Shown one piece after another: positions 5,830 through 34,143 of a stretch of 64,000 nt of DNA. The stretch is from IMG/VR virus record IMGVR_UViG_3300005190_000020. One strand, given 5' to 3'. A program made the position numbers and the translations under genes. Below the pieces are notes generated by a model. It worked only from the letters and a program-made list of their open reading frames with translations, was not told where the DNA came from and searched no databases. The DNA comes from a virus. Within the stretch, counting starts at the first letter, position 1. Each line of letters starts with the position of its first letter.

Positions 5830-5831
5830 TG

Positions 5832-6068
5832 TTAGTTGTCACCTCCGTTAAAACTTGGTAGTTGGTCTACAAATTCTTGTACTGATTTTGCGTCTTCCTC
5901 AATGTTGTCGAGCCTGTTACGGGCTTCGTCTACTTCGTTGAGCATTTCCTGTGCTTCATCTTTCATTGACTGTAACTGATTGATGAACTCCGCCATTTCT
6001 CCGATGCGGTCATTTCTTCGTGACTCAAGGTCTTCAACGAGACCCGATGTCTTGCGTAGTAAACCCAT
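5832..6068 (-). CDS. small coiled-coil protein (78 aa)
   Basis: ORF; conserved promoter motif at 6102-6122 upstream. Confidence 0.45.
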   Translation of the reverse strand: MGLLRKTSGLVEDLESRRNDRIGEMAEFINQLQSMKDEAQEMLNEVDEARNRLDNIEEDAKSVQEFVDQLPSFNGGDN

Positions 6069-6101: not shown

Positions 6102-6122
6102 GGTACTTAACTTTTATATACC
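6102..6122 (-). promoter_or_regulatory. conserved TATA/BRE-type promoter motif (family consensus GGTGTTTAACTTTTATAAACC as written on plus strand; reads TATA box TTTATAAAAG on minus strand)
   Basis: GGTACTTAACTTTTATATACC; ~35-50 nt upstream of the minus ATG at 6068. Confidence 0.5.
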
Positions 6123-7350: not shown

Positions 7351-7353
7351 AAT

Positions 7354-8730: not shown

Positions 8731-8879
8731 GTGCCGGCTCTAATCATTTGTTCTACGTCTTTTTCTGTATTCATACGAAACGGCTTTTTTTCCTGTCCCA
8801 AACTGCTTCTTGCCCTGTTGTTTCTTGTTTAAGTGTTATGTATCGTGGTTTTTCGTCGTCGAGTGTTTCCTGCTTCATA

Positions 8880-8954: not shown

Positions 8955-9053
8955 GTAAAGGGAAATAGTGGAAATCAGGCTGTCAGTCGGTCTTTGCGAG
9001 CTTGAATGCTCTGATACCTCTTGCTTTGCCGAGGAGACTTGCTGTCCAGTCCG

Positions 9054-9082
9054 CCGAAGTAACTGATTTCCTTGCCCTAGTG
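9054..9082 (-). repeat. tRNA-associated conserved element, family 1 copy (minus-strand reading CTAGGGCAAGGAAATCAGTTACTTCGG)
   Basis: One of six copies sharing the 3' block (G/C)TTACTTCGR; lies immediately 3' of the intron-containing tRNA. Confidence 0.55.
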
Positions 9083-9085
9083 AAT

Positions 9086-9220
9086 TGGAGAGAGCTGGAC
9101 TCGAACCAGCGACCACGGGTTATGCATCCGAAGTAACTCCACTACTCGCACCAAGTAATTGGTTAATGTTGTAACGGAGTAGTTAAGTTACGCCGCTCTG
9201 CCTAACTGAGCTACCTCTCC
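9086..9220 (-). tRNA. tRNA gene with ~60-nt insertion (putative intron) between D-arm and T-arm; anticodon unresolved
   Basis: Clear 5' part GGAGAGG-TA-GCTC..GAGC and 3' part GCTGG-TTCGAGT-CCAGC-TCTCTCC-A; intervening sequence ends with conserved GGTGCGAGTAGTGGAGTTACTTCGG. Confidence 0.5.
9128..9152 (-). repeat. tRNA-associated conserved element, family 2 copy (minus reading GGTGCGAGTAGTGGAGTTACTTCGG) inside the tRNA insertion
   Basis: Shares a ~55-nt alignable block with the insertion at 10820-10870. Confidence 0.55.
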
Positions 9221-9223
9221 ATT

Positions 9224-9296
9224 TGGGTTGAAAAGGATTTGAACCTTTGTTCTCCTCGATGTAAGCGAGGTGTCTTGACCGCTAGACCATCAACCC
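9224..9296 (-). tRNA. tRNA-Val (anticodon UAC)
   Basis: Acceptor GGGTTGA/TCAACCC, anticodon arm CCTCG-CTTACAT-CGAGG, T-loop TTCAAAT. Confidence 0.8.
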
Positions 9297-9793
9297 ATAT
9301 ATTCTTCGAGTTTGACTTCCGAATTGTGAAACTCTATATGATGTTTTTTGCAAATCCATTCAACTTCTAAAGGTTTGTCGTAATCTGTGTGATGTGCTTC
9401 AATATTTTCTTCTGTGCCGCACTTTACGCATTTACCTCTTTGAAGTTTTCCTGTTTGAACTGCGCTGTTAACCATTCTCCTTGCTCTGACTTTTTTCGGG
9501 TGTTTTTCTTCTTGTCTTTGTTTGTACCTGTATTTATACTCTGAAATACCGCCTTTCCAATTAGGGTTGTTTTCACCTGTTTGGTCAATTTTTTCTGCCC
9601 TTAGTTTGCCAGAGCATTCTGGGCTGCAAGTTTTTCTTTCTTTTTCTTCATCATCCATTTTAAAGTGGCTGAGTTTTACTTCGTAGTCCTCTCCGCAATA
9701 GTTACACTGCTTGATTACTACTTTACGTTTCCTGCCGTGTAATTTACTTCTGTATACAGTTTTTCCTTGAACTACTTCATCCAGCTCTTCCAT
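9290..9793 (-). CDS. HNH endonuclease (start at Met of MEELDEV; promoter motif 9808-9826 upstream)
   Basis: CNYCG..C..C zinc finger, NPNWKGG motif, EAHHTDYDKPLEVEWICKKHH HNH core. Confidence 0.7.
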   Translation of the reverse strand: MEELDEVVQGKTVYRSKLHGRKRKVVIKQCNYCGEDYEVKLSHFKMDDEEKERKTCSPECSGKLRAEKIDQTGENNPNWKGGISEYKYRYKQRQEEKHPKKVRARRMVNSAVQTGKLQRGKCVKCGTEENIEAHHTDYDKPLEVEWICKKHHIEFHNSEVKLEEYMG

Positions 9794-9829
9794 AGTTATT
9801 ATATGTTTCCCAACTTTTATATATGTTGT

Positions 9830-9905
9830 TAGCGGGAACAGGATTTGAACCTGTGACTTCAAGGTTATGAGCCTTGCGACTTGGACCTGGCTCGTCTACC
9901 CCGCT
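9830..9905 (-). tRNA. tRNA-Met (anticodon CAU), initiator-like (A1:U72)
   Basis: Acceptor AGCGGGG/TCCCGCT with A1-U72 as in archaeal initiators; anticodon arm CAAGG-CTCATAA-CCTTG; T-loop TTCAAAT. Confidence 0.7.
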
Positions 9906-9910
9906 ATTTA

Positions 9911-9985
9911 TGACGAGACACGGATTTGAACCGTGGACATCTCGGATATGAACCGAGTGTTCACTCCTGACTGAACTACCTCGCC
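9911..9985 (-). tRNA. tRNA with anticodon CAU (elongator Met or Ile2/AUA-decoding)
   Basis: Acceptor GGCGAGG (two G-U), anticodon arm CTCGG-TTCATAT-CCGAG, T-loop TTCAAAT. Confidence 0.65.
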
Positions 9986-10020
9986 GTCTTATAGGTTAAC
10001 TTATTTAAACTTTACCAATT

Positions 10021-10045
10021 CACTGTGTGTGTGTTAAAGATTATA
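10021..10045. repeat. inverted partial copy of the (CA)5 element
   Basis: CACTGTGTGTGTGTTAAAGA = reverse complement of TCTTTAACACACACACAGTG seen at 6236 and 60723. Confidence 0.45.
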
Positions 10046-10056
10046 GGGTGGTTGAG

Positions 10057-10130
10057 TGCTAAGGACTGGATTTGAACCAGCATCCTCTCCATCTTCAGTG
10101 GAGCGCCTTCCCGAGTTAGGCTACCTCAGC
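10057..10130 (-). tRNA. tRNA-Phe (anticodon GAA)
   Basis: Acceptor GCTGAGG/CCTTAGC, D-arm GCCT..AGGC, anticodon arm CTCCA-CTGAAGA-TGGAG, T-loop TTCAAAT. Confidence 0.8.
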
Positions 10131-10270
10131 ATCAGGGAAAATTGAAAGAGACGGTAAATAACCAGGCTTACAAGACCTGGGCAGCACGCCTTGTGCTATA
10201 CCTCCCGTCGGGAGGTGAAAGAATCGAACTTTCCGAAGTAAGTCTCCTTCTTGCCCTAGTAAAAAAAAGT
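10131..10270 (-). other. rearranged (apparently circularly permuted) tRNA-like locus: T-arm + 3' acceptor strand lie UPSTREAM of a 5' half carrying a Thr-like (UGU) anticodon arm
   Basis: Minus reading: family-1 element ...TTACTTCGG-AAAG-TTCGATT-CTTTC-ACCTCCC-G-AC-GGGAGGT-AT-AGCA..TGCT-G-CCAGGT-CTTGTAA-GCCTGG; acceptor halves ACCTCCC/GGGAGGT are complementary. Confidence 0.4.
10233..10259 (-). repeat. tRNA-associated conserved element, family 1 copy (minus reading CTAGGGCAAGAAGGAGACTTACTTCGG)
   Basis: Directly abuts the T-arm of the permuted tRNA-like locus. Confidence 0.55.
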
Positions 10271-10407
10271 AATTTGCCGCTTGACAGACCTGGAAAGCCT
10301 GTATCAGCGTAGTGTTGCCACTCGGACAAACATTATTTTAGAAAATGCGAATCTTGAGATACGTGAAATAGTGTCCAAGTGGTTCACCTCTGTAATTTAT
10401 TATTGTG

Positions 10408-10427
10408 GTTTAACTTTTATAAAACCT
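10408..10427 (-). promoter_or_regulatory. conserved TATA/BRE-type promoter motif
   Basis: GGTTTAACTTTTATAAAACC. Confidence 0.5.
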
Positions 10428-10443
10428 TTTGTTTACCGCAAGG

Positions 10444-10517
10444 AGGATTCGAACCTCCGAGCTTCAGGTCCAAAGCCTGATGAGATTGACCACTACTCCA
10501 CTGCGGTGTTATTCGAG
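10444..10517 (-). tRNA. tRNA-Gln (anticodon UUG)
   Basis: Acceptor ACCGCAG/TTGCGGT, anticodon arm TCAGG-CTTTGGA-CCTGA, T-loop TTCGAAT. Confidence 0.75.
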
Positions 10518-10588
10518 AGCTTTTAGCAGCTCTCTGCTTTCAAGTGCTATCCAAAACAGTTTTTGTCTGCGTACTGAGTAACTCATGA

Positions 10589-10661
10589 TAGCTCCGGCAG
10601 GATTCGAACCTGCGTCTCCACGCCCAGAACGTGGAAGGATTGGCCTCTACCCTACGGTGCT
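10589..10661 (-). tRNA. tRNA-Gln (anticodon CUG); one A-A mismatch in acceptor stem
   Basis: Anticodon arm CCACG-TTCTGGG-CGTGG, T-arm GCAGG-TTCGAAT-CCTGC. Confidence 0.6.
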
Positions 10662-10667
10662 GTAAAT

Positions 10668-10741
10668 CGCCTCCACAGGGAGTCGAACCCTGGGCCAACG
10701 CTCGAAAGGCGTTGATGTTTTACCACTTACACCATGGAGGC
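10668..10741 (-). tRNA. tRNA-Glu (anticodon UUC)
   Basis: Acceptor GCCTCCA/TGGAGGC, anticodon arm AACGC-CTTTCGA-GCGTT, 4-nt variable loop, T-loop TTCGACT. Confidence 0.65.
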
Positions 10742-10782
10742 GTATGCGTATTCCTTATTTTGTGTCGAAATGTCGAATGAGG

Positions 10783-10920
10783 GCTGACGGATTCGAACCG
10801 CCGTCACCGGCTCCACAAGCCGAAGTAACCGTACCTAACTCGCACCTTTTTACAGGTTAAACATTGTTGGACGGTGAAAGTGGTATCTTTGACCAAACTA
10901 GACAAAGCCCTCGTCGGTGA
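10783..10920 (-). tRNA. tRNA gene with ~55-nt insertion (putative intron); anticodon unresolved
   Basis: 5' part GAGGGCT-TT-GTCT..AGAT and 3' part GGCGG-TTCGAAT-CCGTC-AGCCCTC-A pair as acceptor; insertion ends AAGGTGCGAGTTAGGTACGGTTACTTCGG, alignable with the insertion in 9086-9220. Confidence 0.45.
10820..10846 (-). repeat. tRNA-associated conserved element, family 2 copy (minus reading GGTGCGAGTTAGGTACGGTTACTTCGG)
   Basis: Second member of the GGTGCGAGT...GTTACTTCGG subfamily. Confidence 0.55.
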
Positions 10921-10924
10921 GTGT

Positions 10925-10998
10925 TGGATTCGAACCAACGACTTCCTACGCCCAAGGTAGGAGTCCTCGCCCACTAGACCAACTCACCATAGGTGAAA
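10925..10998 (-). tRNA. tRNA-Pro (anticodon UGG)
   Basis: Acceptor GGTGAGT/ACTCACC, anticodon arm CCTAC-CTTGGGC-GTAGG, T-arm GTTGG-TTCGAAT-CCAAC. Confidence 0.8.
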
Positions 10999-11097
10999 CA
11001 GTGGGAAACAGCGTTTAGTTGGAGGATTTAAAGTAGGGTCCCGCCTCCTGCCACAGGCGGTTGTGTTCGAAGTATCTGTTTCCCTTGCACCTGTTTA

Positions 11098-11172
11098 TGC
11101 CGCCGACGAGATTTGAACTCGTGTCGCTTGCTCGAAAGGCAAGCATGATTGACCTGACTACACTATGGCGGC
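11098..11172 (-). tRNA. tRNA-Glu (anticodon UUC), typical archaeal Glu-type sequence
   Basis: GCCGCCA..GTGTAGTCAGGTCAATCATGC..CTTGC-CTTTCGA-GCAAG..ACGAG-TTCAAAT-CTCGT. Confidence 0.7.
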
Positions 11173-11177
11173 AGTAT

Positions 11178-11250
11178 CGCCCGGCACGGGATTTGAACCC
11201 GTGTCCACCGGCTGACAACCGACGATGATGAGCCACTACACTAGCCGAGC
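11178..11250 (-). tRNA. tRNA-Asp (anticodon GUC)
   Basis: Acceptor GCTCGGC/GCCGGGC, anticodon arm GTCGG-TTGTCAG-CCGGT, T-arm ACGGG-TTCAAAT-CCCGT. Confidence 0.7.
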
Positions 11251-11358
11251 AAAAAAGGTTAGAGTGCTACAGGATAGCTTACGGTTAGAGATTGGTTACT
11301 CTTCCCTCGCGAGGGTTACGGCTTTGCCGTCCGCAGCCCGCTCCCTGCACTCTGTAGA

Positions 11359-11433
11359 TGCTCCCTCTGAGATTTGAACTCAGGACCCAAGACTGAGAAT
11401 CTTGGATGATTGACCGTACTACACCAAGGGAGC
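11359..11433 (-). tRNA. tRNA-Glu (anticodon CUC)
   Basis: Acceptor GCTCCCT/AGGGAGC, anticodon arm CAAGA-TTCTCAG-TCTTG, T-arm CTGAG-TTCAAAT-CTCAG. Confidence 0.75.
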
Positions 11434-11582
11434 ATGTATACATCGTAGAAAAACTTGCTAACCCAATTGTCTTGGGTCGTTAAGAAGTAAAACCTGGATA
11501 GCTTTACCTCTCTTACTGTCCAGCATCTTCTGGTTGCTGGGGTTCAGAGGGTTCTAGGTAAAGCTCTACAAGTGACATAAGT

Positions 11583-11656
11583 GGTATGGACCCTGTCAGA
11601 CTTGAACTGACGGCCTTTCCGTTGCAAACGGAACGCTCTGCCAACTGAGCTAAGGG
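11583..11656 (-). tRNA. tRNA-Ala (anticodon UGC)
   Basis: Acceptor GGGCCCT with G3:U70; anticodon arm TTCCG-TTTGCAA-CGGAA; T-loop TTCAAGT. Confidence 0.8.
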
Positions 11657-11767
11657 CCCGTGGTAAAGGACGGTGATTCTCGGCATCCGCACCTCCTGCA
11701 CCGTTCCTCGAAGCAGGTTGTGGTTCATCGCCTTTTATTTAAAGGTGCTGGGTAAGCACCGTGTTCA

Positions 11768-11838
11768 TGCGCCCAGTGAGAATCGAACTCACGCCACTCG
11801 CTTGGAAGGCGAGTATCTTACCACTTGACCATGGACGC
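11768..11838 (-). tRNA. tRNA-Gly (anticodon UCC)
   Basis: Acceptor GCGTCCA/TGGGCGC, anticodon arm CTCGC-CTTCCAA-GCGAG, T-arm GTGAG-TTCGATT-CTCAC. Confidence 0.7.
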
Positions 11839-11946
11839 TGGTAGTGAAGGGTTGCCATTGAAGGTGAGTCCGTCACAGGCTTTTTCCGTTCGCCTCTGGT
11901 CTACACCCGCAACCCTTCGGTTTAATTCGTGTTAAGGTTCAATAGT

Positions 11947-12022
11947 ATCCGCAGGCCGGACTCGAACCGGCAGCCTGTCGTTTACAAGACGACTGCTCTG
12001 GAACCAATTGAGCTACTACGGA
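11947..12022 (-). tRNA. tRNA-Thr (anticodon UGU); U1:A72 first pair
   Basis: Acceptor TCCGTAG/CTGCGGA, D-arm GCTC..GAGC, anticodon arm GTCGT-CTTGTAA-ACGAC, T-arm GCCGG-TTCGAGT-CCGGC. Confidence 0.7.
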
Positions 12023-12047
12023 ATTGTCTTGACTGTATATTATTATT

Positions 12048-12069
12048 GTCACTTAACTTTTATAAATCC
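12048..12069 (-). promoter_or_regulatory. conserved TATA/BRE-type promoter motif, ~35 nt upstream of tRNA-Thr(UGU) 5' end
   Basis: GTCACTTAACTTTTATAAATCC. Confidence 0.5.
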
Positions 12070-12079
12070 TTTGTGTGGA

Positions 12080-12151
12080 ATCCGGTTGCGAGACTCGAAC
12101 TCGCACCTCCGACATACCAAGTCGGTGTACTGCCTTTGATACTAAACCGGA
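12080..12151 (-). tRNA. tRNA-Thr (anticodon GGU); U1:A72 first pair
   Basis: Acceptor TCCGGTT/AACCGGA, anticodon arm CCGAC-TTGGTAT-GTCGG, T-arm GCGAG-TTCGAGT-CTCGC. Confidence 0.7.
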
Positions 12152-12160
12152 GTAAGTAAG

Positions 12161-12346
12161 TTAGTATGGTGCTACAAAGTCTTCTGCTTCAGGGGTGGTA
12201 CTCATTATTTCGTAGCTCGTTTCTGGTTCGAGGTTGTGGTCTGCCCATGTTTCTGCTTCGCTCCGGTTGTCTGTCTCCGTGGTGAAGCGTACTTCTCCGT
12301 CTACAGCTACAATCCACCTTACTCTGGTGTCTTGATTCATCATCAT
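12161..12346 (-). CDS. small acidic hypothetical protein (61 aa)
   Basis: ORF only; weak. Confidence 0.3.
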   Translation of the reverse strand: MMMNQDTRVRWIVAVDGEVRFTTETDNRSEAETWADHNLEPETSYEIMSTTPEAEDFVAPY

Positions 12347-12451
12347 ATGTATATTTATAGTTACTAACCTTTAAAAATGTGTTTGAGAGTAGGGGTCGAA
12401 TAGTTTGCCGGAACAAAAACTTTTATTATTGTTTAATTTCAAGTAATATGT

Positions 12452-12985
12452 ATGGAAGAAACCGAAAGAACATGGAACGGGAAAACGGTTTACAGAGGTT
12501 CGAAGAACGATTCTCAAAAACAAGACTATGTAAAGAACAATTGTGAGTATTGTGGCGAATATTTCTATGCTCTTTTACAATCTAGGAAAAGAGGAAACGG
12601 GAACTTCTGTAGTCGCTCCTGTAGCGGTAAAAAACAAGCTGAAGAAGGAAACTTAAGCGGCGAGGACAATCCTAATTGGAAAGGCGGTGTTAGTGAAAAC
12701 CATTACGAAAGGAATAAAGAGCAGTATATACAAAGAACTAAGGAAAATAAGTTGAAGAAGAAGAAATTTGTTGAAGACTACAAAAAGGAAAGAGAATGCG
12801 AAGAATGTGGAGAAGGGTTTTATCGCTGTTTACAGTTTCATCATCGTAACCCTGAAGAAAAATTTAAAGGGGTTTCTGAGATGGCAGACCTCAATTATTC
12901 AATAGACAGAATTAAAGACGAAATAGAGAAGTGTGACTTAGTATGTTCTAACTGTCACAGGAAAAGACATTACGAAGAAGAGTAG
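12452..12985 (+). CDS. HNH endonuclease (the only plus-strand gene of the island)
   Basis: CEYCG..C..C zinc finger, DNPNWKGG motif, FHHRN...CDLVCSNCH HNH core. Confidence 0.7.
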   Translation: MEETERTWNGKTVYRGSKNDSQKQDYVKNNCEYCGEYFYALLQSRKRGNGNFCSRSCSGKKQAEEGNLSGEDNPNWKGGVSENHYERNKEQYIQRTKENKLKKKKFVEDYKKERECEECGEGFYRCLQFHHRNPEEKFKGVSEMADLNYSIDRIKDEIEKCDLVCSNCHRKRHYEEE

Positions 12986-13055
12986 GGTGTGAGATTTGAA
13001 CTCACGTAAATCTGCTCTGCAAGCAGACACATATAAACCACTCTGTCAACCCTAC
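12981..13055 (-). tRNA. tRNA-Cys (anticodon GCA)
   Basis: Acceptor GTAGGGT/ACCCTAC, anticodon arm TCTGC-TTGCAGA-GCAGA, T-arm GTGAG-TTCAAAT-CTCAC. Confidence 0.65.
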
Positions 13056-13056
13056 T

Positions 13057-13140
13057 ATAAGCCGAAGTGCGGACTTGAACCGCGTCTTACCTTTACCATG
13101 GATACGGTTTTTCCCAGTTGGCTGTGTACTTAAGCTCGTC
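13057..13140 (-). tRNA. tRNA-like gene (~84 nt, type-II-like length), anticodon unresolved; 3' end contains the ACTTCGG block
   Basis: T-arm CGCGG-TTCAAGT-CCGCA and acceptor-like GCCGACG/CTTCGGC visible; remainder does not fold canonically by hand. Confidence 0.3.
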
Positions 13141-13189
13141 GGCATAGTGAAGGGAAAAGGTGGAGTCGGAATGGACAACTGGTGTTGCC

Positions 13190-13320
13190 CGTAGGCAGTT
13201 TAGTCTGAACTACGAGACTTGCCGAGGTCTCGGAGGGATTTGAACCCTCGACTTTCAACTCTTAAGGTTGACGTTCTAACCGAAGTAGCCGACTTCCTTA
13301 GCCCTTCAAAGGGTGATTTC
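13190..13320 (-). other. split/permuted tRNA-like locus: family-1 element, then T-arm GAGGG-TTCAAAT-CCCTC + CGAGACC, then 5'-half-like AGTCTCG-TA-AGTT..AACT followed by a 7-bp/ACCA-tetraloop hairpin
   Basis: Minus-strand reading; acceptor halves CGAGACC / AGTCTCG nearly complementary; no canonical anticodon arm found. Confidence 0.3.
13280..13306 (-). repeat. tRNA-associated conserved element, family 1 copy (minus reading AAGGGCTAAGGAAGTCGGCTACTTCGG)
   Basis: Shares AGGGC(A/T)AG-purine run-...TTACTTCGG with copies at 9054, 10233, 13446. Confidence 0.5.
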
Positions 13321-13379
13321 CATCAACTGCGACCGTCTACGTTGGACGGCTAAAAATGTTAAGGGAATAGTGAGAGCGA

Positions 13380-13476
13380 GATTCAGAGCTTTTCCGCCTG
13401 CTCCTATAAGGGATAAGGATTCGAACCTTCCAGGTGATTCTGTAATCGAAGTAACTCGTTCTCTAGCCCTTGTAAA
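13380..13476 (-). other. tRNA 3'-half-like fragment (T-arm GGAAGG-TTCGAAT-CCTTAT) preceded by family-1 element; no matching 5' half identified
   Basis: Minus reading: ...GAGTTACTTCG-ATTACAGAATCAC-CTGGAAGGTTCGAATCCTTATCCCTTAT...; lies immediately 3' of tRNA-Trp. Confidence 0.3.
13446..13470 (-). repeat. tRNA-associated conserved element, family 1 copy (minus reading AAGGGCTAGAGAACGAGTTACTTCGA)
   Basis: Sixth copy of the motif family. Confidence 0.5.
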
Positions 13477-13551
13477 TGGGAGAGACAGGACTCGAACCTG
13501 TATCCACTGCTCTGGAGGCAGCAGCTCGGCCAATTGAGGCTATACACTCCC
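13477..13551 (-). tRNA. tRNA-Trp (anticodon CCA), apparently intron-less
   Basis: Acceptor GGGAGTG/CTCTCCC (one mismatch), anticodon arm GCTGC-CTCCAGA-GCAGT, T-arm ACAGG-TTCGAGT-CCTGT. Confidence 0.6.
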
Positions 13552-13630: not shown

Positions 13631-13652
13631 GGTGTTTAACTTTTTTAAACCT
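13631..13652 (-). promoter_or_regulatory. conserved promoter motif (weaker TATA: TTTTTTAAAC)
   Basis: GGTGTTTAACTTTTTTAAACC ~90 nt upstream of tRNA-Trp 5' end. Confidence 0.4.
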
Positions 13653-25839: not shown

Positions 25840-27375
25840 TTACTGGTATGCCTCTATTTCCATTGGCTCCCAGTTTTTAATGTCGTTCAAGAGTGCTTCC
25901 TCGTTTTCAGCGTGCTGAATGTAGTCAAGCATGTCGCTTGTCCATCCCTGCAACTCGTAAACGTCAGGGTAGCCTTCAGGGAAGCTTAGGTCTCCGTAAC
26001 TTGAAAGGTCTACAAGGTAAAGACTTGCGGACGGATTAACTTCTTCCTTGTAAGCCTCCCACTCGTCTTTCAAGGTTTGTGCGTCGTGACTCCAACCTGC
26101 GTTTGAATCCCATAACTGTAGGTCGGAGAACATAACTACACGTTTGTAGCTCTCTCCTTTCTGCCGGATGTCTCTGATTGCTTTGTAAGCGTTTGTGCTT
26201 CCTCCTGTCTGAGCATCCATGATTTTCTGCTGAAGCTCAAGTGTCGGAGTGTTGTAGTGAGCTTTGACGCGTTTGTAACGCTTACCGAATGCTCCTGTGT
26301 CGCTTCCGTGACGCATCATCATGGCTCCGAACAAGGCACCGATTTCTGCGTGCTGTAGGTCGGATTCCTGACTGATTCCTACTCCGTACATGGAGCCGGA
26401 TGTGTCTACAGCTGTGAATGTGTCGCTTAGGTTGTCGTCTAAACTGTCTGATGCTTTGTCGATTGCCTCTGAAAGTTTTTCTTCGATGACTGGGTCGCTG
26501 ACTCCTGCGTCCTTAACTGCTTTGTAGGACTGGTAGAATCTGAAAGGCCAAATCTGTGCGTGTTCAACCCATTCTAGGTCGATGTCGCCTACGATTTCCT
26601 CTGATTCAAGCCCTGCTTCTTTCATGTTTCGAATGTTTCTGATTCGGGCGAACAGTCCCATGTCGTCTAGGACTTCTCTCCATGCTTCGGCGTTGTTGCC
26701 TTTCTCGGAGATAACTGTTTCCCATGTCTTGCCTTGTGACTCGTTTAGAGGCTGTACGTCTGGGTACTTGTCTAGGTCGCCTCTCATCAGTCTTTCGAAG
26801 ATTTCGTCTCTTAACTCGTCTTGAGGGTTTGGGTGAGTCCTGTTGATTACGTCTCTAATGTTGACTTCACGGTTGTCGTTGTCGTACTTGTCGTACTGGT
26901 ATTTGTCGAATTTGTGAAGTGCTTTGTTGATTCCTTTTTTCAAAGGCTTCGGCATTGTTCCGCCTTGTAGCTGGTCCCATGCTGCTACGACTGTTGCTGG
27001 TTCGTCGGCTCTGTCGATAATGTTTCCAGCCCATTTTTCGACGTATTCCTTGGTTCTGTCGTCGCCTGCTGCAAGGACTAGAAGGACTTGTGAAATGTCT
27101 CTTAATCCCATGCTTTGTCTGGCGTATGCAGCCAGTTTCAAAGCAAACTCAGGGTTTTCGTCTGCTACTTCTTCGAAGGCTCGTTCAACGCTTCTAAGCT
27201 GTTCTTGGTCGTTTTCGTAGTAAGTGTCTTCAAGAAGGTTGTTGATGACGTTTTTAGCCAGGCCTAGTTCAGGTGTGTCTGGCTCGTATGCTTCGCCACC
27301 TTCATAGTTTGTGGTTTTGGTTCTTTCTGCAACTGTGTCTTTTGTGCTGTTTAGTTCCATTGTGTTGTTTAGCAC
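25840..27375 (-). CDS. vWA-domain protein with large N-terminal helical domain (Ro60/TROVE-like architecture)
   Basis: C-terminal MIDAS-like AVDTSGSM...; ~320-aa alpha-helical N-terminus + ~190-aa vWA, 511 aa total as in Ro60/Rsr. Confidence 0.4.
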   Translation of the reverse strand: MLNNTMELNSTKDTVAERTKTTNYEGGEAYEPDTPELGLAKNVINNLLEDTYYENDQEQLRSVERAFEEVADENPEFALKLAAYARQSMGLRDISQVLLVLAAGDDRTKEYVEKWAGNIIDRADEPATVVAAWDQLQGGTMPKPLKKGINKALHKFDKYQYDKYDNDNREVNIRDVINRTHPNPQDELRDEIFERLMRGDLDKYPDVQPLNESQGKTWETVISEKGNNAEAWREVLDDMGLFARIRNIRNMKEAGLESEEIVGDIDLEWVEHAQIWPFRFYQSYKAVKDAGVSDPVIEEKLSEAIDKASDSLDDNLSDTFTAVDTSGSMYGVGISQESDLQHAEIGALFGAMMMRHGSDTGAFGKRYKRVKAHYNTPTLELQQKIMDAQTGGSTNAYKAIRDIRQKGESYKRVVMFSDLQLWDSNAGWSHDAQTLKDEWEAYKEEVNPSASLYLVDLSSYGDLSFPEGYPDVYELQGWTSDMLDYIQHAENEEALLNDIKNWEPMEIEAYQ

Positions 27376-28200: not shown

Positions 28201-28938
28201 TTACGTGTCTTGTAGTGCATTGGTCTCTGTCTCCCCGCCTTTACGCCAGTGAAGTTCTTCTGTTTGAACATGGTTTTCACGCACGCATTTAGCCATGTTC
28301 TCAGTTAATTCATCCAGCGGGAATCCTTTAGTGTTTCTTACGACGTAGCCTTCTCTTGTGTCTCCGTACTTGCTTTCTCCTTCAGGCATTTTGTCTACGA
28401 TACTCATGTACCTTCTGAAGTCGTCTCCTATTTCTAAAAATTCTTCGAGGTCTGTTATACGGAATTTGTCTATTACTGGTACGGTTGGCAACCCTACTTC
28501 TTCTGCTATTGCTTCTACTTCGTACCACGGCAGCCATTCTCCGTCGTAAAGCACTCCGAATACTAGGAAGTAGCTTGGAAGGTTTTCATAATCTATGCTG
28601 TGCCGTGCGTAAAGGTATTCTCCGAAGATTGCGAAGTCTTCAGGTATTTTGTGCATCAGTTCTTCTCTGTGCCTTTTCTTGAGATAGTCCCATTCTTCTC
28701 TATGCGGTTCACCTGAGTGGCTCCGGGCATAGACTTTGTCACTGGTTAGGCAGGCGTTTGCCCCGTCCATCTTCTCTGTTATCACTACTTCGTTCATAAA
28801 GTTTTGTTTCGTGAACATTTCTTCGGTTTCTGATTTGCTAAGCCATTTCTGTTGCCGTGCGTCTTCTTGACTCCAAGGCAGGTGTTTCATGCTCGGCATT
28901 TTAGGTACTTCGTGTCCATGTTCGTTATTCTGTGTCAT
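28201..28938 (-). CDS. covalent nucleotidyltransferase of the ligase family, most likely an RNA ligase (Rnl2/DRB0094-like size)
   Basis: Motif I VITEKMDGANA (KxDG), motif III-like IFGEYLY, motif IV EGYVVRN; only 245 aa and a bona fide DNA ligase is encoded elsewhere (62383-63315). Confidence 0.5.
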   Translation of the reverse strand: MTQNNEHGHEVPKMPSMKHLPWSQEDARQQKWLSKSETEEMFTKQNFMNEVVITEKMDGANACLTSDKVYARSHSGEPHREEWDYLKKRHREELMHKIPEDFAIFGEYLYARHSIDYENLPSYFLVFGVLYDGEWLPWYEVEAIAEEVGLPTVPVIDKFRITDLEEFLEIGDDFRRYMSIVDKMPEGESKYGDTREGYVVRNTKGFPLDELTENMAKCVRENHVQTEELHWRKGGETETNALQDT

Positions 28939-33298: not shown

Positions 33299-34087
33299 CT
33301 AATCTTTATAAATGTATTTGTCGGGCCACTTGTATTCAAAACCTTTTGGAGGATTACCCATCCACTTCCATACTTTCTTTGAGTCTTCAACGCTAAATTC
33401 TATTATACAGTTTACTTTACCTGCTCCATTTTTTCTTTTGTGTTCATTCCATCGAGCTATTTCTACAGGTGTGGAATCAAACATTTTTCCTACTTTTTCT
33501 TTCTCTGCTCGTTCGTTTGACAAGCCTATTGCTATGTAATTGTTATTATTTGTGTTATGCCATGTGCCGTCACAGCAGAACCAGTGCTTTAATATTTTTG
33601 GAGTTAACTTTATTTCAGGGAACTTTTTTTCACCGCTTTCATACCATTTTTCAAAGTTTGATAGTTCTGGATGTTTTCTTCCGTTGAGAACATATAAGTC
33701 TGAGTAATTTTCTTCAGAAGCGTTTTCACTCAACCCTGTTTTTCTTGCGTGTCTGGCGGATTCTTCTGCTGTTGCTTTCCTGCTGATTTTGCTTGACAAA
33801 AACGTTAGTTCGCTGTCTAAGTATTCAAGGTATTTTCTATTAGTATTTGTTACGCATATTGAAGGATTTCCAGCTTTGTTGATGTATCCATCTCCCATCA
33901 ATACACCTGTAATTATTTCTTTTTGTTTTTCAGAAATTTCTGGGTAATTACAGCTAGATTTATTCCAGTGAAGAGATATGTTCTTGTAGTTGTTTCCACA
34001 TTGTTTACATTTCATAAGAGAAAAAAGGTGGAAGGTGAAAGTGAAGTTCGGGAAAACCCACCTTGCTGGGTTATGACATTGGGGCAA
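33299..34087 (-). CDS. LAGLIDADG homing endonuclease (two-motif, monomeric type); start uncertain (34087 or internal Met ~34015)
   Basis: ITGVLMGDGYI and WFCCDGTW LAGLIDADG-type motifs; AT-rich. Confidence 0.6.
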   Translation of the reverse strand: MPQCHNPARWVFPNFTFTFHLFSLMKCKQCGNNYKNISLHWNKSSCNYPEISEKQKEIITGVLMGDGYINKAGNPSICVTNTNRKYLEYLDSELTFLSSKISRKATAEESARHARKTGLSENASEENYSDLYVLNGRKHPELSNFEKWYESGEKKFPEIKLTPKILKHWFCCDGTWHNTNNNNYIAIGLSNERAEKEKVGKMFDSTPVEIARWNEHKRKNGAGKVNCIIEFSVEDSKKVWKWMGNPPKGFEYKWPDKYIYKD

Positions 34088-34143
34088 TTGTTCTGGATTG
34101 CGAAGTAACCGAACTTCTCGCCCTTCTATAATAACATTATTAG

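What the first reader, a model, noticed from the sequence alone, without database searches (positions are those of the whole stretch)
9054..13476. Family of conserved elements ending in GTTACTTCGG at every disrupted tRNA locus of the island (two with intron-like insertions, three with permuted/split halves)
Six copies of a ~25-55 nt element share the 3' block (G/C)TTACTTCGR, read on the minus strand. Family 1 has four copies: CTAGGGCAAG-purine run-...TTACTTCGG. Family 2 has two copies: GGTGCGAGT-AG-G-...GTTACTTCGG. Family 2 sits at the 3' end of ~55-60 nt insertions that split two otherwise good tRNA genes (9086-9220 and 10783-10920). The two insertions align over ~55 nt. The 3' exon-like segment is 17 nt long in both cases. 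In three family-1 loci the element abuts a T-arm plus 3' acceptor strand that lies upstream of, or apart from, a matching 5' half. At 10131-10270 the order is T-arm, ACCTCCC, then GGGAGGT, D-arm, and an anticodon arm CCAGGT-CTTGTAA-GCCTGG. That order is what a circularly permuted tRNA-Thr(UGU)-like gene would show. The sixth copy trails the intron-bearing tRNA at 9054. Conventional BHB introns at 37/38 do not explain the arrangement, because I could not place canonical anticodon stems. It may be a new class of tRNA intron or processing element, a set of permuted or split tRNA genes in an archaeal virus, or a tRNA-targeting mini insertion element.
Basis: seen in the sequence. Interest (0 to 1): 0.9.

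Follow-up and report, generated by a model that had tools for sequence, protein, structure and literature searches.

The report
Y RNA genes in halovirus tRNA island
The repeated "…GTTACTTCGG" elements are most likely the Ro60-protein-binding stems of at least eight Y-RNA-like (tRNA-mimicking) non-coding RNA genes in a haloarchaeal virus that also encodes Ro60; they do not look like introns or split tRNA genes, and Y RNAs of this kind have been described in bacteria and phages but, as far as I could find, not in archaea.

Summary
The window holds 8 copies, not 6, all on the minus strand, against about 0.4 expected by chance.

Every copy is one strand of the same module. The 5' strand reads P1 (..GGG or ..GGUG), C-N-A, P2 (9-10 nt), UUACUUCGR. 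The 3' strand reads P2', A-N-U-N-U-U-U, P1'. P2 covaries strongly: 97% of cells are paired and 8 of 9 pairs show double changes.

- **Family 1:** the stem is open and encloses 48-120 nt. In two units (U2, U3) this is a full tRNA-like body with a closed acceptor stem, in U1 only a T-arm-like hairpin.
- **Family 2:** the same module is circularly permuted, capped by a loop, and sits between the D arm and the anticodon arm of a tRNA-shaped RNA.

No bulge-helix-bulge (BHB) motif is present. The "anticodons" change among orthologues.

The virus encodes a Ro60/TROVE protein, an RNA ligase, a CCA-adding enzyme and RlaP. The same motif, CGA-helix-(U/A)UACUUC, lies just upstream of TROVE genes on the same strand in three haloarchaeal chromosomes, in halovirus HGTV-1, and in many phage contigs (10-fold enrichment).

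Best reading: these are Y-RNA-like (YrlA-type) partners of Ro60. Ro60 binding itself was not tested. This is a new variant of a known kind, because of the archaeal setting and the tRNA-ended topology.

The parts
13361..13471 (-). Unit U1, stem-ended Y-RNA-like gene. 5' strand at 13446-13471: AAGGG-CUA-GAGAACGAG-UUACUUCGA. 3' strand at 13361-13380: CUCGCUCUC-ACUAUU-CCCUU. The 65-nt interior holds a T-arm-like hairpin.
   Evidence: Orthologues in L140 (6548-6701) and L152 (4155-4305) keep the stem.
13149..13307 (-). Unit U2, the most YrlA-like gene. Order: P1 GAAGGG, CUAA, P2 GGAAGUCGG, CUACUUCGG, anticodon-like arm (13255-13271), T arm (13233-13249), closed acceptor stem CGAGACC-UCGGCAA-GUCUCG (13213-13232), D-like arm, hairpin, P2' CCGACUCC, P1' CCCUUC.
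   Evidence: The Rfam YrlA model aligns it in the right order, T then closed stem then D, but scores only 19.8 bits against a gathering score of 69. Seven orthologues give an RNAalifold consensus with 10 of 38 pairs compensatory.
10991..11092 (-). AGGUG-CAA-GGGAAACAG-AUACUUCGA, 55 nt, then CUGUUUCCC-ACUGUUU-CACCU. It fills the spacer between tRNA-Glu and tRNA-Pro and has no tRNA-like interior.
   Evidence: Orthologues L141 18346 (GAGGAACAG/CUGUUCCUC) and L143 15815 covary.
10778..10912 (-). Unit B, tRNA-ended permuted form. It has an open acceptor stem GAGGGCU/AGCCCUC, a D arm and a T arm. The module lies at 10820-10874, between position 26 and the anticodon arm: P2' CCGUCCAAC, AAUGUUUA, P1' ACCU, loop, P1 AGGU, GCGA, P2 GUUAGGUACGG, UUACUUCGG. 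The anticodon arm is UCGGC-UUGUGGA-GCCGG (GUG).
   Evidence: Orthologues carry GUG (L140, L141), GUC (L149) or UUC (L152), and L143 has no anticodon arm at all.
10134..10258 (-). Unit U3, stem-ended with a permuted tRNA-like body. UAGGG-CAA-GAAGGAGAC-UUACUUCGG, T arm (10217-10233), closed acceptor ACCUCCC-GAC-GGGAGGU (10200-10216), D arm, stem-loop CCAGGU-CUUGUAA-GCCUGG (10162-10180), then GUCUCUUUC-AAUUUU-CCCU.
   Evidence: Orthologues are L140 9080-9207, L141 19084-19205 and L152 6543-6677. The L140 copy has a 4-bp stem with a 9-nt loop in place of the 'Thr' anticodon arm.
9086..9220 (-). Unit A, tRNA-ended permuted form. It has an open acceptor GGAGAGG/UCUCUCC, a D arm and a T arm. The module lies at 9128-9180: P2' ACUCCGUUAC, AACAUUA, P1' ACC(AA), loop, P1 (UU)GGU, GCGA, P2 GUAGUGGAGU, UACUUCGG. 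It is followed by CGG-AUGCAUAAC-CCG, which is not a canonical anticodon arm.
   Evidence: The Rfam tRNA model scores 39.6 bits with a 73-nt insertion and no aligned anticodon loop. P2 covaries: L140 has ACUCUGUUAC/GUAAGAGAGU.
8959..9079 (-). Unit U5, stem-ended with a non-tRNA interior. UAGGG-CAA-GGAAAUCAG-UUACUUCGG, 75 nt, then CUGAUUUCC-ACUAUUU-CCCU. It is bounded by unit A upstream and tRNA-Val downstream.
   Evidence: The orthologue is L140 10233-10356.
34031..34126 (-). It is a stand-alone copy outside the tRNA island: GAAGG-GCGA-GAAGUUCGG-UUACUUCGC, 48 nt, then CCGAACUUC-ACUUUCA-CCUUC. A promoter-like motif lies 21 nt upstream (34147-34158) and a U6 run follows. It sits between the RlaP gene and a LAGLIDADG gene.
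25840..27375 (-). Ro60 orthologue (TROVE domain protein), the proposed protein partner of the eight RNAs.
   Evidence: Pfam TROVE, E = 1e-21. Full-length match to Thermus phage phiLo Ro60 structures 9KOP and 9L5Y, E = 5e-36. 49% identical to the HGTV-1 TROVE protein and about 50% identical to cellular haloarchaeal TROVE proteins.
28201..28938 (-). RNA ligase (PF09414). It belongs to an RNA-repair or tRNA-maintenance gene neighbourhood that also holds a DSPc phosphatase (25291-25749), a CCA-adding enzyme (29964-31361) and the RlaP nucleotidyltransferase (34459-35358).
13636..13647 (-). One of 17 copies of the promoter-like motif T(A/T)(A/T)A(A/T)AAGTT(A/G)(A/G), usually TATAAAAGTTAA. This copy precedes the tRNA-Trp, U1, U2 stretch. 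Others lie at 10410-10421, 9996-10007, 12053-12064, 34147-34158 (before U6) and 27422-27433 (before the TROVE gene).
   Evidence: 17 matches, all on the minus strand, against 0.65 expected.

Best explanation
**What it is.** The elements are the protein-binding stem of a family of Y-RNA-like non-coding RNAs. This is the class that partners the ring-shaped RNA-binding protein Ro60 (TROVE). A haloarchaeal tailed virus that also encodes Ro60 carries at least eight such genes.

**The module.** Each RNA has one conserved module:
- a short outer helix P1;
- an asymmetric internal loop, with 5' strand C-N-A (often CGA) and a U-rich 3' strand A-N-U-N-U-U-U;
- a 9-10 bp purine-rich helix P2;
- directly after P2, the junction sequence YUAC-UUCGR.

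Beyond the junction comes a variable 'effector' body.

**The six stem-ended genes (U1-U6).** The RNA ends lie at P1. In U2 and U3 the body is a tRNA mimic with a closed acceptor stem, and U1 keeps only a T-arm-like hairpin. U2 has the order V/anticodon-like arm, T arm, closed acceptor, D arm, as in bacterial YrlA. In U4, U5 and U6 the body is an unrelated fold.

**The two tRNA-ended genes (A, B).** The same RNA is circularly permuted. P1 is capped by a small loop and the acceptor stem is open. The result looks like a tRNA carrying a 55-65 nt extra arm between the D arm and the anticodon arm.

**Shown here.** The structure, its covariation, its conservation in relatives, and its genomic linkage to Ro60 genes.

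**Inferred.**
- The RNAs are transcribed within the tRNA polycistrons, or from their own promoter in the case of U6.
- They are released by RNase P and tRNase Z cuts at the flanking tRNAs, or at their own acceptor ends for A and B.
- The viral Ro60 binds the P1-loop-P2 module through the 5' strand.
- The tRNA-like or other body tethers Ro60 to tRNA-handling enzymes (viral RNA ligase, CCA-adding enzyme, host exonucleases), or gates Ro60, or acts as a decoy. This would serve quality control or repair of the virus's large tRNA set during infection, by analogy with Rsr-YrlA and the Ro60/Y RNA/PNPase complex.
For: 1. **One structural family.** P2 pairs in 97.4% of cells and 8 of 9 pairs show double changes across 17 stem-ended units. 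Slid controls give 46-57%. In 11 tRNA-ended units 97.7% of cells pair, against 21-44% in slid controls. The 3' tail A-N-U-N-U-U-U plus CCCU was not part of the search, yet it follows the partner in nearly every unit.
2. **Conservation.** The module is conserved at orthologous places in relatives whose neighbouring 680-aa protein is 63-90% identical: L140, L141, L143, L148, L149, L150 and L152.
3. **YrlA-like order.** U2 has the YrlA order of modules, and the Rfam YrlA model aligns it that way. RNAalifold on 7 orthologues gives P1, P2, an anticodon-like arm, a T arm, a closed acceptor and a D arm, with 10 compensatory pairs.
4. **Published Y RNA hallmarks.** These are a 5'/3' stem, an internal bulge with a CGAA-like motif (GNCGAAN0-1G), and YUAY after the helix (PMC4201824; PMC12135203). 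Here the module reads GGGC-N-A(G), helix, UUAC. Relatives carry the exact GGCGAAGG (L143 13382, L152 4457).
5. **A Ro60 gene in the virus.** The virus encodes a full-length Ro60 orthologue. It also encodes an RNA ligase, a CCA-adding enzyme, RlaP and a phosphatase.
6. **Independent genomic linkage to Ro60 genes.**
   - In three haloarchaeal chromosomes (Haloprofundus, Halorubrum, Halococcoides), all 12 motif hits are on the TROVE strand and upstream of the TROVE gene; 9 lie within 1 kb, two at about 1.2 kb and one at 4 kb. Shuffles give 0.65-0.85 per locus. Complete P1/P2 stems are present, and in L164 both topologies occur.
   - In the isolated halovirus HGTV-1, a unit lies about 100 nt upstream of TROVE. 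A tRNA-ended unit, annotated there as 'tRNA-Asp + intron', lies 3 kb upstream.
   - In 80 IMG/VR TROVE loci the motif CGA-N8-11-(A/C/U)UAC(U/C)UC is 10-fold enriched in the 1.5 kb upstream on the same strand: 32 hits in 113 kb against 69 in 2.5 Mb.
7. **Relatives lacking the island.** Within the 22 kb fetched, relatives without the tRNA island (L145, L151) show no module copy and no TROVE gene.
Against: - No binding data exist. The link to Ro60 rests on architecture and genomic association.
- In the window itself the nearest copy (U6) is 6.7 kb from the TROVE gene, and the island copies are 12-17 kb away. Bacterial YrlA genes typically lie within 4 kb.
- The Rfam YrlA model scores only 13-22 bits against a gathering score of 69. 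By that test these are not members of the curated family.
- The strict GNCGAAN0-1G motif is not met by any of the eight window copies. They read GGGCAAG, GGGCUAG, GGGCGAG and similar.
- Unit B would be a perfect tRNA-His if its 62-nt arm were removed, and no other tRNA-His was found in the window or in L140 and L141. A decoding role after processing therefore cannot be excluded.
- Co-occurrence of the module and TROVE in this virus group is confounded with presence of the tRNA island.
Confidence: 0.8

Rival explanations
1. These are genuine disrupted tRNA genes. A and B would be tRNAs with a new kind of intron at position 26/27. U2 and U3 would be circularly permuted tRNA genes. The conserved module would be the recognition structure for excision and ligation, either by the host splicing endonuclease with RtcB or by a virus-encoded nuclease with the viral RNA ligase, followed by CCA addition.
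For: - Removing 62 nt from B leaves a canonical cloverleaf with anticodon GUG, and no other tRNA-His was found.
- The gene order in U2 and U3 is that of permuted tRNAs.
- The virus encodes an RNA ligase and a CCA-adding enzyme. HGTV-1 encodes RtcB near its copy, and annotators called that copy an intron-containing tRNA.
- Wang et al. 2018 raised the idea that YrlA-like RNAs might be processed like permuted tRNAs.
Against: - No hBHBh' motif lies at any junction. BHB-like hits number 50 in the region against 49 in shuffles, and hand checks of the junctions fail.
- The anticodon of B changes among orthologues with near-identical acceptor and D arms (GUG, GUC, UUC), and L143 has lost the arm.
- A has no canonical anticodon stem in any of 5 orthologues.
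- U3's 'Thr' arm is a 4-bp stem with a 9-nt loop in L140.
- U2's anticodon-like loop reads UAA, UAA, UUA, GUA or UGA in five of seven orthologues, while a sixth has an 8-nt loop; only its stems covary.
- The closed acceptor loops are only 3-10 nt.
- Three units (U4-U6) and the minimal units in relatives enclose no tRNA at all.
- The module is linked to TROVE genes even where no disrupted tRNA is present.
Confidence: 0.1
2. The module is a structured RNA signal bound by a protein other than Ro60, or it acts in processing or termination of the tRNA polycistrons. Candidate binders are the viral RNA ligase, RlaP, Alba or L7Ae. The linkage to TROVE genes would then be indirect, reflecting a shared RNA-repair island.
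For: - In the window the copies lie in the tRNA island or next to RlaP, not next to TROVE.
- TROVE, tRNA arrays, RNA ligase or RtcB, and nucleotidyltransferases travel together.
- U4 and U5 fill inter-tRNA spacers exactly.
Against: - In cells and in many phages the motif sits immediately upstream of TROVE itself (73-1100 nt), on the same strand, often in tandem.
- The stem, CGA(A) loop, stem, YUAY layout is the published Ro60-binding layout.
- It is not a K-turn: there are no tandem G.A pairs.
- It is not a terminator: oligo-U tracts follow only some units.
Confidence: 0.07
3. The copies are a small mobile DNA element or recombination scars. They would be decayed tRNA fragments left by homing endonucleases or integrases in a much-rearranged tRNA island, with no function as RNA.
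For: - The island is full of HNH homing-endonuclease-like ORFs (9298-9827, 8162-8879, 6881-7351).
- LAGLIDADG genes are present, and U6 abuts one of them.
- Anticodon arms are swapped among orthologues.
Against: - Compensatory base changes keep both helices.
- All copies are on the transcribed strand.
- Orthologous positions are kept across relatives in which the neighbouring 680-aa protein is only 63-71% identical.
- There are no terminal inverted repeats or target duplications.
- The family also occurs at Ro60 genes in cellular chromosomes and in bacterial phages.
Confidence: 0.03

Closest known systems
YrlA and other prokaryotic Y RNAs (Rfam RF02553; Chen et al. 2014, PMC4201824; Wang et al. 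2018, bioRxiv 10.1101/312249; phiLo Yrl1/Yrl2, PMC12135203)
   Same: - The RNA is modular. The 5' and 3' ends form a stem with an internal loop carrying a CGA(A)-type motif on the 5' strand, then a second helix, then YUAY.
- The effector domain mimics a tRNA in the order V arm, T arm, closed acceptor stem, D arm (unit U2).
- There are several paralogues per genome with different effector domains, like YrlA and YrlB.
- The genes are encoded with a Ro60/TROVE gene and RNA-repair genes, and they occur in viruses.
- The motif CGA-N8-11-(U/A)UACUUC recurs upstream of TROVE genes in many phage contigs.
   Different: - The setting is archaeal, in both virus and host lineage.
- The window holds eight copies, embedded in a tRNA array 12-17 kb from the Ro60 gene.
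- Scores against the Rfam model are far below threshold, at 22 bits or less.
- The loop motif is usually C-N-A rather than CGAA.
- The junction extends to a conserved YUAC-UUCGR.
- Two copies (A, B) have the opposite circular permutation: an open acceptor stem with the Ro60-type stem capped by a loop. I did not find this described for Y RNAs in the papers I could read.
Circularly permuted tRNA genes (Cyanidioschyzon merolae and other algae; Thermofilum pendens; PMC3978253)
   Same: The 3' half (T arm plus 3' acceptor strand) lies upstream of the 5' half. The acceptor stem is initially closed. The RNA ends pair to form an extended stem.
   Different: - Permuted tRNA genes need a BHB motif at the leader/trailer junction for the splicing endonuclease. 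None is present here.
- Their mature products are canonical decoders with conserved anticodons. Here the anticodon-like loops drift or are lost.
- Here the acceptor loops are as short as 3 nt.
Archaeal tRNA introns at non-canonical positions and split tRNAs (BHB-dependent; PMC4090602, PMC4033280)
   Same: An insertion interrupts a tRNA-shaped gene outside position 37/38. The host is an archaeon that has a splicing endonuclease and RtcB.
   Different: - There is no BHB, strict or relaxed, at the boundaries.
- The inserted sequence is itself a conserved, covarying structure shared with non-tRNA loci and with Ro60 loci.
- Unit A cannot be spliced into a canonical tRNA.
Deinococcus radiodurans Yrn1 and metazoan Y RNAs
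   Same: A stem, bulged loop, stem Ro60 site is recognised mainly through the 5' strand. Compare GGUCCGAGU in human Y3 (quoted from my own memory, not checked here) with GGUGCGAGU in units A and B. The 3' strand of the loop is U-rich. Some tRNA-like features are present.
   Different: Sequence similarity is short and may be coincidental. The effector loops are unrelated.

Membership tests
Prokaryotic Y RNA / YrlA | The 5' and 3' ends pair into a stem, bulged internal loop, stem module. | tested here: met
   P1, asymmetric loop and P2 are present in all 8 window copies and in more than 30 copies in relatives. P2 is 97-98% paired with compensatory changes. In units A and B the module is present but closed by a loop rather than formed by the RNA ends.
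Prokaryotic Y RNA / YrlA | A GNCGAAN0-1G ('CGAA') motif on the 5' strand of the loop. | tested here: inconclusive
   Window copies read GGGCAAG, GGGCUAG, GGGCUAAG, GGUGCAAG, GGGCGAG and GGUGCGAG. None matches the strict motif. Relatives have the exact GGCGAAGG (L143 13382, L152 4457). Cellular haloarchaeal copies read (U)CGA.
Prokaryotic Y RNA / YrlA | A conserved YUAY directly after the helix, at the start of the V region. | tested here: met
   UUAC in six copies and CUAC in one. The remaining copy has AUAC, which is not Y at the first position.
Prokaryotic Y RNA / YrlA | A tRNA-like effector domain with a T arm, a closed acceptor-like stem-loop and a D arm. | tested here: met
   U2 shows the order V, T, AS, D, and the YrlA model aligns these parts. 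U3 has T, AS, D plus an extra arm. U1 is partial. U4, U5 and U6 lack the domain, as YrlB does.
Prokaryotic Y RNA / YrlA | Encoded close to a Ro60/TROVE gene (within about 4 kb) on the same strand. | tested here: inconclusive
   In the window the strand is the same but the distance is 6.7 kb (U6) to 12-17 kb (island). The feature is met by homologous units elsewhere: 0.1-1.2 kb upstream in Haloprofundus, Halorubrum and Halococcoides, about 100 nt and 3 kb upstream in HGTV-1, and in many IMG/VR phage loci.
Prokaryotic Y RNA / YrlA | Reaches the Rfam RF02553 gathering score. | tested here: not met
   The best scores at module units are 19.8 bits (window U2) and 22.3 bits (L141 U2), against a gathering score of 69. 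There were no YrlA hits in L164, L165 or L225.
Prokaryotic Y RNA / YrlA | The RNA is bound by Ro60. | not testable with these tools
   This needs EMSA or RIP-seq. Only the presence of a full-length Ro60 orthologue is shown.
Circularly permuted tRNA gene | The 3' half lies upstream of the 5' half in one transcription unit. | tested here: met
   U2 and U3.
Circularly permuted tRNA gene | A BHB motif is formed by the leader and trailer at the junction. | tested here: not met
   P1, loop (3 nt against 6-7 nt) and 9-bp P2 do not make a 3-nt bulge, 4-bp helix, 3-nt bulge. The scan found no BHB at the junctions, and the hit count equals chance.
Circularly permuted tRNA gene | The product is a canonical decoder, with anticodon arm and identity conserved among orthologues. 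| tested here: not met
   The U2 loop varies (UAA, UUA, GUA, UGA and others). The U3 arm is degenerate in L140.
Archaeal BHB tRNA intron (canonical or non-canonical position) | An hBHBh' or relaxed BHB lies at the exon-intron boundaries. | tested here: not met
   Hand checks of the boundaries in A and B, and the scan, found none. The Infernal tRNA model places a 73-nt insertion with no anticodon loop aligned. ARAGORN with the intron option reports a tRNA-Arg(tcg) with a 55-nt intron only by reading the conserved CUUCGGA as the anticodon loop.
Archaeal BHB tRNA intron (canonical or non-canonical position) | Joining the exons gives a canonical cloverleaf. | tested here: inconclusive
   Yes for B in the window, L140 and L141. 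No for A in all 5 orthologues, and no for the L143 copy of B.
Miniature insertion element | Terminal inverted repeats or target-site duplications, and insertion in either orientation at non-orthologous sites. | tested here: not met
   All copies are on one strand and at orthologous positions in relatives. The helices are kept by compensatory changes rather than by sequence identity.

The most novel reading that the evidence does not exclude
The tRNA-ended forms (A, B, and HGTV-1's 'tRNA-Asp + intron') may be bifunctional. They could be matured by RNase P, tRNase Z and the viral CCA-adding enzyme, and used as tRNAs while carrying a Ro60-binding arm. Alternatively, a Ro60-guided, ligase-dependent pathway that is not BHB-based could remove the arm. 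Either way, supply of certain tRNAs such as tRNA-His would depend on the virus's own RNA-repair machinery. A related reading is that the fast-changing anticodon-like loops (GUG, GUC, GUA, UUC and others) are Ro60-tethered decoys for host anticodon nucleases.
Probability: 0.1. Interest if true: 0.9.

Novelty: new variant of a known kind. Interest (0 to 1): 0.6.

Why it matters
Y RNAs and Ro60 are well studied in animals and bacteria, but their origin and the purpose of the tRNA mimicry remain open. In the papers I could search I found no description of Y RNAs in archaea or archaeal viruses.

This locus, together with the cellular haloarchaeal loci found on the way, offers three things.

- **A testable family of archaeal Y RNAs.** It has a clear sequence and structure signature and is present in cultivable systems: HGTV-1 with Halogranum, and Halorubrum and Haloprofundus.
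- **Two circular permutations side by side.** The same RNA occurs in a tRNA-ended and a stem-ended form. This is the kind of intermediate invoked in proposals that YrlA evolved from tRNAs or permuted pre-tRNAs.
- **A viral context.** Ro60, eight Y RNAs, an RNA ligase, a CCA-adding enzyme and about 30 tRNAs are encoded together. This points to tRNA quality control or counter-defence as the job of the Ro60 particle.

It also corrects annotation. 'Intron-containing' or odd tRNA calls in haloviruses, such as HGTV-1 'tRNA-Asp + intron', are likely Y-RNA-like genes.

Tried and rejected
**Searches that found nothing useful.**
- Degenerate versions of the element searched in IMG/VR gave only single, chance-level hits per contig. 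This used two scans.
- Megablast of the island and tblastn of the neighbouring 680-aa protein against the phage collection found nothing.
- A single-protein search of IMG/VR found nothing.
- The genome-contig scan with the 680-aa protein profile gave only a distant hit in an Archaeoglobaceae MAG.

**Known RNA families.**
- No family other than tRNA reaches its gathering score in the window.
- The YrlA model gives only weak hits. Some of these are artefacts that span two adjacent tRNAs.
- A phage locus (L225) carrying the same motif has no YrlA hit either.

**Structural alternatives rejected.**
- BHB motifs were tested by hand and by a scan. They are absent at the junctions, and the number of hits equals chance.
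- A K-turn is ruled out because there are no tandem G.A pairs. A C/D-box RNA is ruled out because there is no C box. Small self-cleaving ribozymes are ruled out because there is no Rfam hit and no hammerhead core.
- My first fold of unit A as one long irregular hairpin (GUAAC/GUUAC) was dropped. The 10-bp P2 (ACUCCGUUAC/GUAGUGGAGU) is the pairing that the orthologues support.

**Caveats on my own scans.**
- ARAGORN with the intron option calls A a tRNA-Arg only by using the conserved CUUCGGA as an anticodon loop. I do not accept this call.
- The structure-only scan in GC-rich genomes is noisy. Only hits that also carry the sequence motif were counted.
- My scan for P2 partners is lax, and a chance partner within 300 nt is likely. 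Support for P2 therefore rests on perfect 9/9 pairing, the independent conserved 3' tail, and covariation among orthologues.

Full report
**1. The observation**

The region is a tRNA island on the minus strand. ARAGORN and Rfam find about 25 ordinary tRNAs between 6136 and 13549. All six reported copies of (G/C)TTACTTCGR are present.

Two more copies exist. One is ATACTTCGA at 11075-11067, in the spacer between tRNA-Glu and tRNA-Pro. The other is TTACTTCGC at 34108-34100, 20 kb away.

The composite pattern GKGCNA-N10-TACTTCG has 6 exact matches, all on the minus strand. With up to 1 mismatch allowed, 0.40 matches are expected by chance. The bare octamer also occurs in coding sequence, so it is the upstream block that makes the family specific.

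**2. What kind of genome this is**

- The window encodes RadA, an ERCC4 nuclease, an eRF1-like protein, ribonucleotide reductase and thymidine kinase.
- It carries a promoter-like motif, usually TATAAAAGTTAA, 17 times. All copies are on the minus strand, against 0.65 expected.
- It has no DNA match in the phage collection.
- Its TROVE protein is 49% identical to that of Halogranum tailed virus HGTV-1 and about 50% identical to chromosomal TROVE proteins of many Halobacteria.

Close to the TROVE gene (25840-27375) lie a DSPc phosphatase, an RNA ligase (28201-28938), a CCA-adding enzyme (29964-31361) and an RlaP nucleotidyltransferase (34459-35358). The TROVE protein aligns over its full length with the solved Ro60 of Thermus phage phiLo (9KOP and 9L5Y, E = 5e-36). 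That protein binds two phage Y-RNA-like molecules (PMC12135203).

**3. Anatomy of the element**

Reading the spacers and folding them showed that the 'family 1' element is the 5' strand of a long-range stem.

- The 5' strand is P1 (AGGG, AGGUG or GAAGG), then C-N-A, then P2 (9 nt, purine-rich), then YUAC-UUCGR.
- The 3' strand lies 48-120 nt downstream in the window copies. It is P2', then A-N-U-N-U-U-U, then P1' (CCCU, CACCU or CCUUC).

A scan for P2 partners recovered U1, U3, U4, U5 and U6. U2 has a one-nucleotide bulge in P2.

The partner scan alone is lax, and a chance partner within 300 nt is likely. However, the partners are mostly perfect 9/9 matches. Each is also followed by the conserved U-rich tail and P1', which were not searched for.

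**4. Relatives and covariation**

Homologues of the neighbouring 680-aa protein led to related contigs: L140 (90% identical), L152 (82%), L148 (81%), L141 (71%), L149 (68%), L143 (64%) and L150 (63%). All carry the module at orthologous places.

- On 17 stem-ended units, P2 is paired in 97.4% of cells and 8 of 9 pairs have changes on both sides. Slid controls give 46-57%.
- 'Family 2' turned out to be the same module in the other circular permutation. The order is P2', A-A-U-N-U-U-U-A, P1' (ACCU), a 4-8 nt loop, P1 (AGGU), GCGA, P2, UUACUUCGG.
- P2 of type A is ACUCCGUUAC/GUAGUGGAGU, with ACUCUGUUAC/GUAAGAGAGU in L140.
- P2 of type B is CCGUCCAAC/GUU-A-GG-U-ACGG, with CCGUCCGAC/GUC.. in L149.
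- On 11 such units, 97.7% of cells pair, against 21-44% when slid.

Relatives also contain 'minimal' units with only 18-20 nt between the strands (L140 6469-6535, L143 13288-13352, L152 4320-4386).

**5. What the module is attached to**

- **U2** (7 orthologues). After YUAC-UUCGG come an anticodon-like arm (5 bp plus a 7-nt loop, with all five stem pairs covarying), a T arm, a closed acceptor-like stem (CGAGACC-UCGGCAN-GUCUCG), UA, a D-like arm and a variable hairpin. This is the order of modules in bacterial YrlA. The Rfam YrlA model aligns U2 that way but scores only 19.8 bits against a gathering score of 69.
- **U3.** T arm, closed acceptor with a 3-nt loop, D arm, and an extra stem-loop.
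- **U1.** Only a T-arm-like hairpin is recognisable.
- **U4, U5, U6 and the minimal units.** No tRNA-like part.
- **A and B.** These are tRNA-shaped, with open acceptor stems and good D and T arms. The module projects between the D arm and the anticodon-arm region.

**6. Why these are not introns or permuted tRNA genes**

- No BHB can be drawn at any junction. A scan for hBHBh' motifs gave 50 hits against a mean of 49 in shuffles, and none lay at the junctions.
- B's anticodon is GUG in the window, L140 and L141. It is GUC in L149 and UUC in L152, and L143 has no arm at all. The acceptor and D arms stay nearly the same throughout.
- A has only a 3-bp stem with a 9-nt loop (CGG-AUGCAUAAC-CCG) or similar in all five orthologues.
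- U2's loop reads UAA, UAA, UUA, GUA or UGA in five of seven orthologues, and a sixth has an 8-nt loop.
- U3's arm is non-canonical in L140.
- Infernal's tRNA model treats A as a tRNA with a 73-nt insertion and no aligned anticodon loop.
- ARAGORN with the intron option calls A a tRNA-Arg only by using the conserved CUUCGGA as the loop.

B remains the one case in which excision would give a perfect tRNA-His, and no other tRNA-His was seen. I therefore keep a 10% rival for that reading.

**7. The link to Ro60**

Published features of prokaryotic Y RNAs are as follows (PMC4201824; 10.1101/312249; PMC12135203):
- a stem formed by the two ends;
- an internal bulge carrying a CGAA-type motif (GNCGAAN0-1G), read by Ro60 mainly on the 5' strand;
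- a conserved YUAY after the helix;
- in YrlA, a tRNA-like domain with a closed acceptor stem;
- genes lying next to Ro60 on the same strand.

The module here has that layout.

The decisive test was to look at Ro60 genes elsewhere.

- **Cellular chromosomes.** Upstream of the chromosomal TROVE genes of Haloprofundus salinisoli (L164), Halorubrum sp. BOL3-1 (L165) and Halococcoides cellulosivorans (L166) lie tRNA genes and tandem GC-rich versions of the same unit. An example is GGCGACCG-UCGA-GCAGGAGUG-UUCCUUCGC, 123 nt, then CGCUCCUGC-GAUUUUC-CGGUCGCC. L164 also has tRNA-ended forms.
- **Motif count in those loci.** All 12 hits to C-N-A-N9-10-(A/C/U)U(A/C)CUUC are on the TROVE strand and upstream of the gene (9 within 1 kb, two at about 1.2 kb, one at 4 kb), against 0.65-0.85 expected per locus.
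- **HGTV-1.** A unit (CGA-GGGAGUCGG-AUACUUC...CCGACUUCC) ends about 100 nt before the TROVE start codon. A minimal unit and a tRNA-ended unit lie 3 kb upstream near RtcB. The tRNA-ended unit is annotated 'tRNA-Asp (gtc) + Intron'.
- **IMG/VR TROVE loci.** In 80 loci, mostly bacterial-phage-like, the motif CGA-N8-11-(A/C/U)UAC(U/C)UC occurs 32 times in the 113 kb lying up to 1.5 kb upstream on the same strand. It occurs 69 times in the remaining 2.5 Mb, a 10-fold enrichment. The upstream copies are often in tandem and read GGUGG-CGAAG-...-G(U/A)UACUUC.

**8. Mechanism**

Shown:
- a conserved, covarying two-helix module with sequence-constrained loop and junction;
- its attachment to tRNA mimics or other folds, in two circular permutations;
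- co-encoding with Ro60 and RNA-repair enzymes;
- tight genomic linkage to Ro60 genes in cells and viruses.

Inferred:
- The RNAs are made from the tRNA polycistrons. U4 and U5 fill inter-tRNA spacers exactly. U6 has its own promoter-like motif 21 nt upstream and a U-run after it.
- They are released by tRNA-end processing and bound by the viral Ro60.
- Their variable bodies then tether, gate or decoy tRNA-acting enzymes. This follows the model of Rsr-YrlA and the Ro60/Y RNA/PNPase machine.

Which enzyme is tethered, and whether A and B receive CCA or are charged, is unknown.

**9. Novelty**

Searches of the held literature for Y RNAs together with archaea, haloviruses, HGTV-1 or TROVE found only two kinds of paper. 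Some remark that certain archaeal viruses or Borgs encode TROVE proteins. Others note that HGTV-1 has tRNA-metabolism genes. None describes archaeal Y RNAs. Rfam has no model that detects these RNAs.

The kind (Y RNA / YrlA) is known. The archaeal family, the multi-copy embedding in a tRNA island, and the tRNA-ended permuted topology appear to be new. I rate it a new variant of a known kind, interest 0.6, with 0.8 confidence in the Y RNA reading.

Noticed in passing
window, 17 sites on the minus strand, e.g. 6107-6118, 10410-10421, 13636-13647, 27422-27433, 34147-34158, 56776-56787: A conserved promoter-like motif TWWAWAAGTTRR, usually TATAAAAGTTAA and often preceded by TT. It occurs 17 times against 0.65 expected, always on the minus strand, upstream of genes and tRNA blocks. 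It looks like an archaeal TATA-type viral promoter.
   Followed up: partly
window 11839-11946, 11660-11767, 11252-11356 (minus strand): Three inter-tRNA spacers of 105-108 nt also fold into long-range stems, e.g. GAAGGGUUGC...GCAACCCUUC followed by ACU. They lack the C-N-A and UUACUUCG signature. They may be further small RNAs or processing structures.
   Followed up: no
window 13056-13148 (minus strand); also in L149 and L152 downstream of their U2 units: A conserved sequence of about 90 nt, GCCGACGAGCUUAAGUACACAGCCAACUGGG...GCGGUUCAAGUCCGCACUUCGGCU. It has a T arm and a pairing acceptor-like stem (GCCGA../..UCGGC) but no recognisable D or anticodon arm. Neither ARAGORN nor Rfam calls it. Its 3' strand again contains ACUUCGG.
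   Followed up: no
window 10267-10400 (minus strand); conserved in L140 8930-9075: A conserved non-coding stretch of about 130 nt starts just after the promoter-like motif at 10410-10421 and ends in a run of eight U, immediately before unit U3. It is a candidate independent small RNA.
   Followed up: no
window 6881-7351, 8162-8879, 9298-9827 (minus strand); 12452-12985 (plus strand); 33299-34087 and 39039-39644 (minus strand): Three paralogous ORFs between the tRNAs resemble HNH homing endonucleases by inspection of their Cys/His motifs, although Pfam gave no hit for the two that were tested (8080-8730 and 9290-9862). There is also a Cys-rich ORF on the opposite strand and two LAGLIDADG endonuclease genes. 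One LAGLIDADG gene lies directly downstream of unit U6. The tRNA island appears heavily invaded by mobile endonuclease genes.
   Followed up: partly
L248 (HGTV-1, NC_021328.1) 17013-17144, record coordinates 70440-70571: The feature annotated 'tRNA-Asp (gtc) + Intron' in the published HGTV-1 genome is a tRNA-ended unit carrying the same module: CGCUUCUGA-GAUUUCA-GCCAC-loop-GUGGA-GCGA-UUGGAAGCG-UUACUUCGC. The annotation as an intron-containing tRNA is probably wrong.
   Followed up: partly
L164 4319-6000, L165 3391-6000, L166 about 2000-6000: Chromosomal haloarchaeal TROVE genes are preceded by arrays of tRNA genes, tRNA-like genes and tandem Y-like units. In L165 a PDDEXK_5 gene like the one in the viral tRNA islands is also present. 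The whole tRNA, Y RNA and Ro60 block may be a mobile or virus-derived cassette.
   Followed up: partly
window 47603-48490 (minus strand), next to tRNA-Leu genes at 45811-48583: An eRF1-like (release-factor family) protein is encoded among three tRNA-Leu genes. This suggests further viral tinkering with translation.
   Followed up: no
window 13477-13549 (minus strand): A weak tRNA call (Rfam 29.9 bits, missed by ARAGORN) with anticodon loop CUCCAGA, i.e. tRNA-Trp(CCA). Relatives have a clear tRNA-Trp at the same place (L141 13547-13619, L143 13210-13281).
   Followed up: partly
L247 (Thermus phage phiLo) 2240-2330, upstream of its Ro60 gene: The region that should hold the experimentally bound Yrl RNAs contains CUUUACUUCGGCC...GGCGAAGC, so both UUACUUCGG and a CGAA motif are present. 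I did not work out its structure.
   Followed up: no
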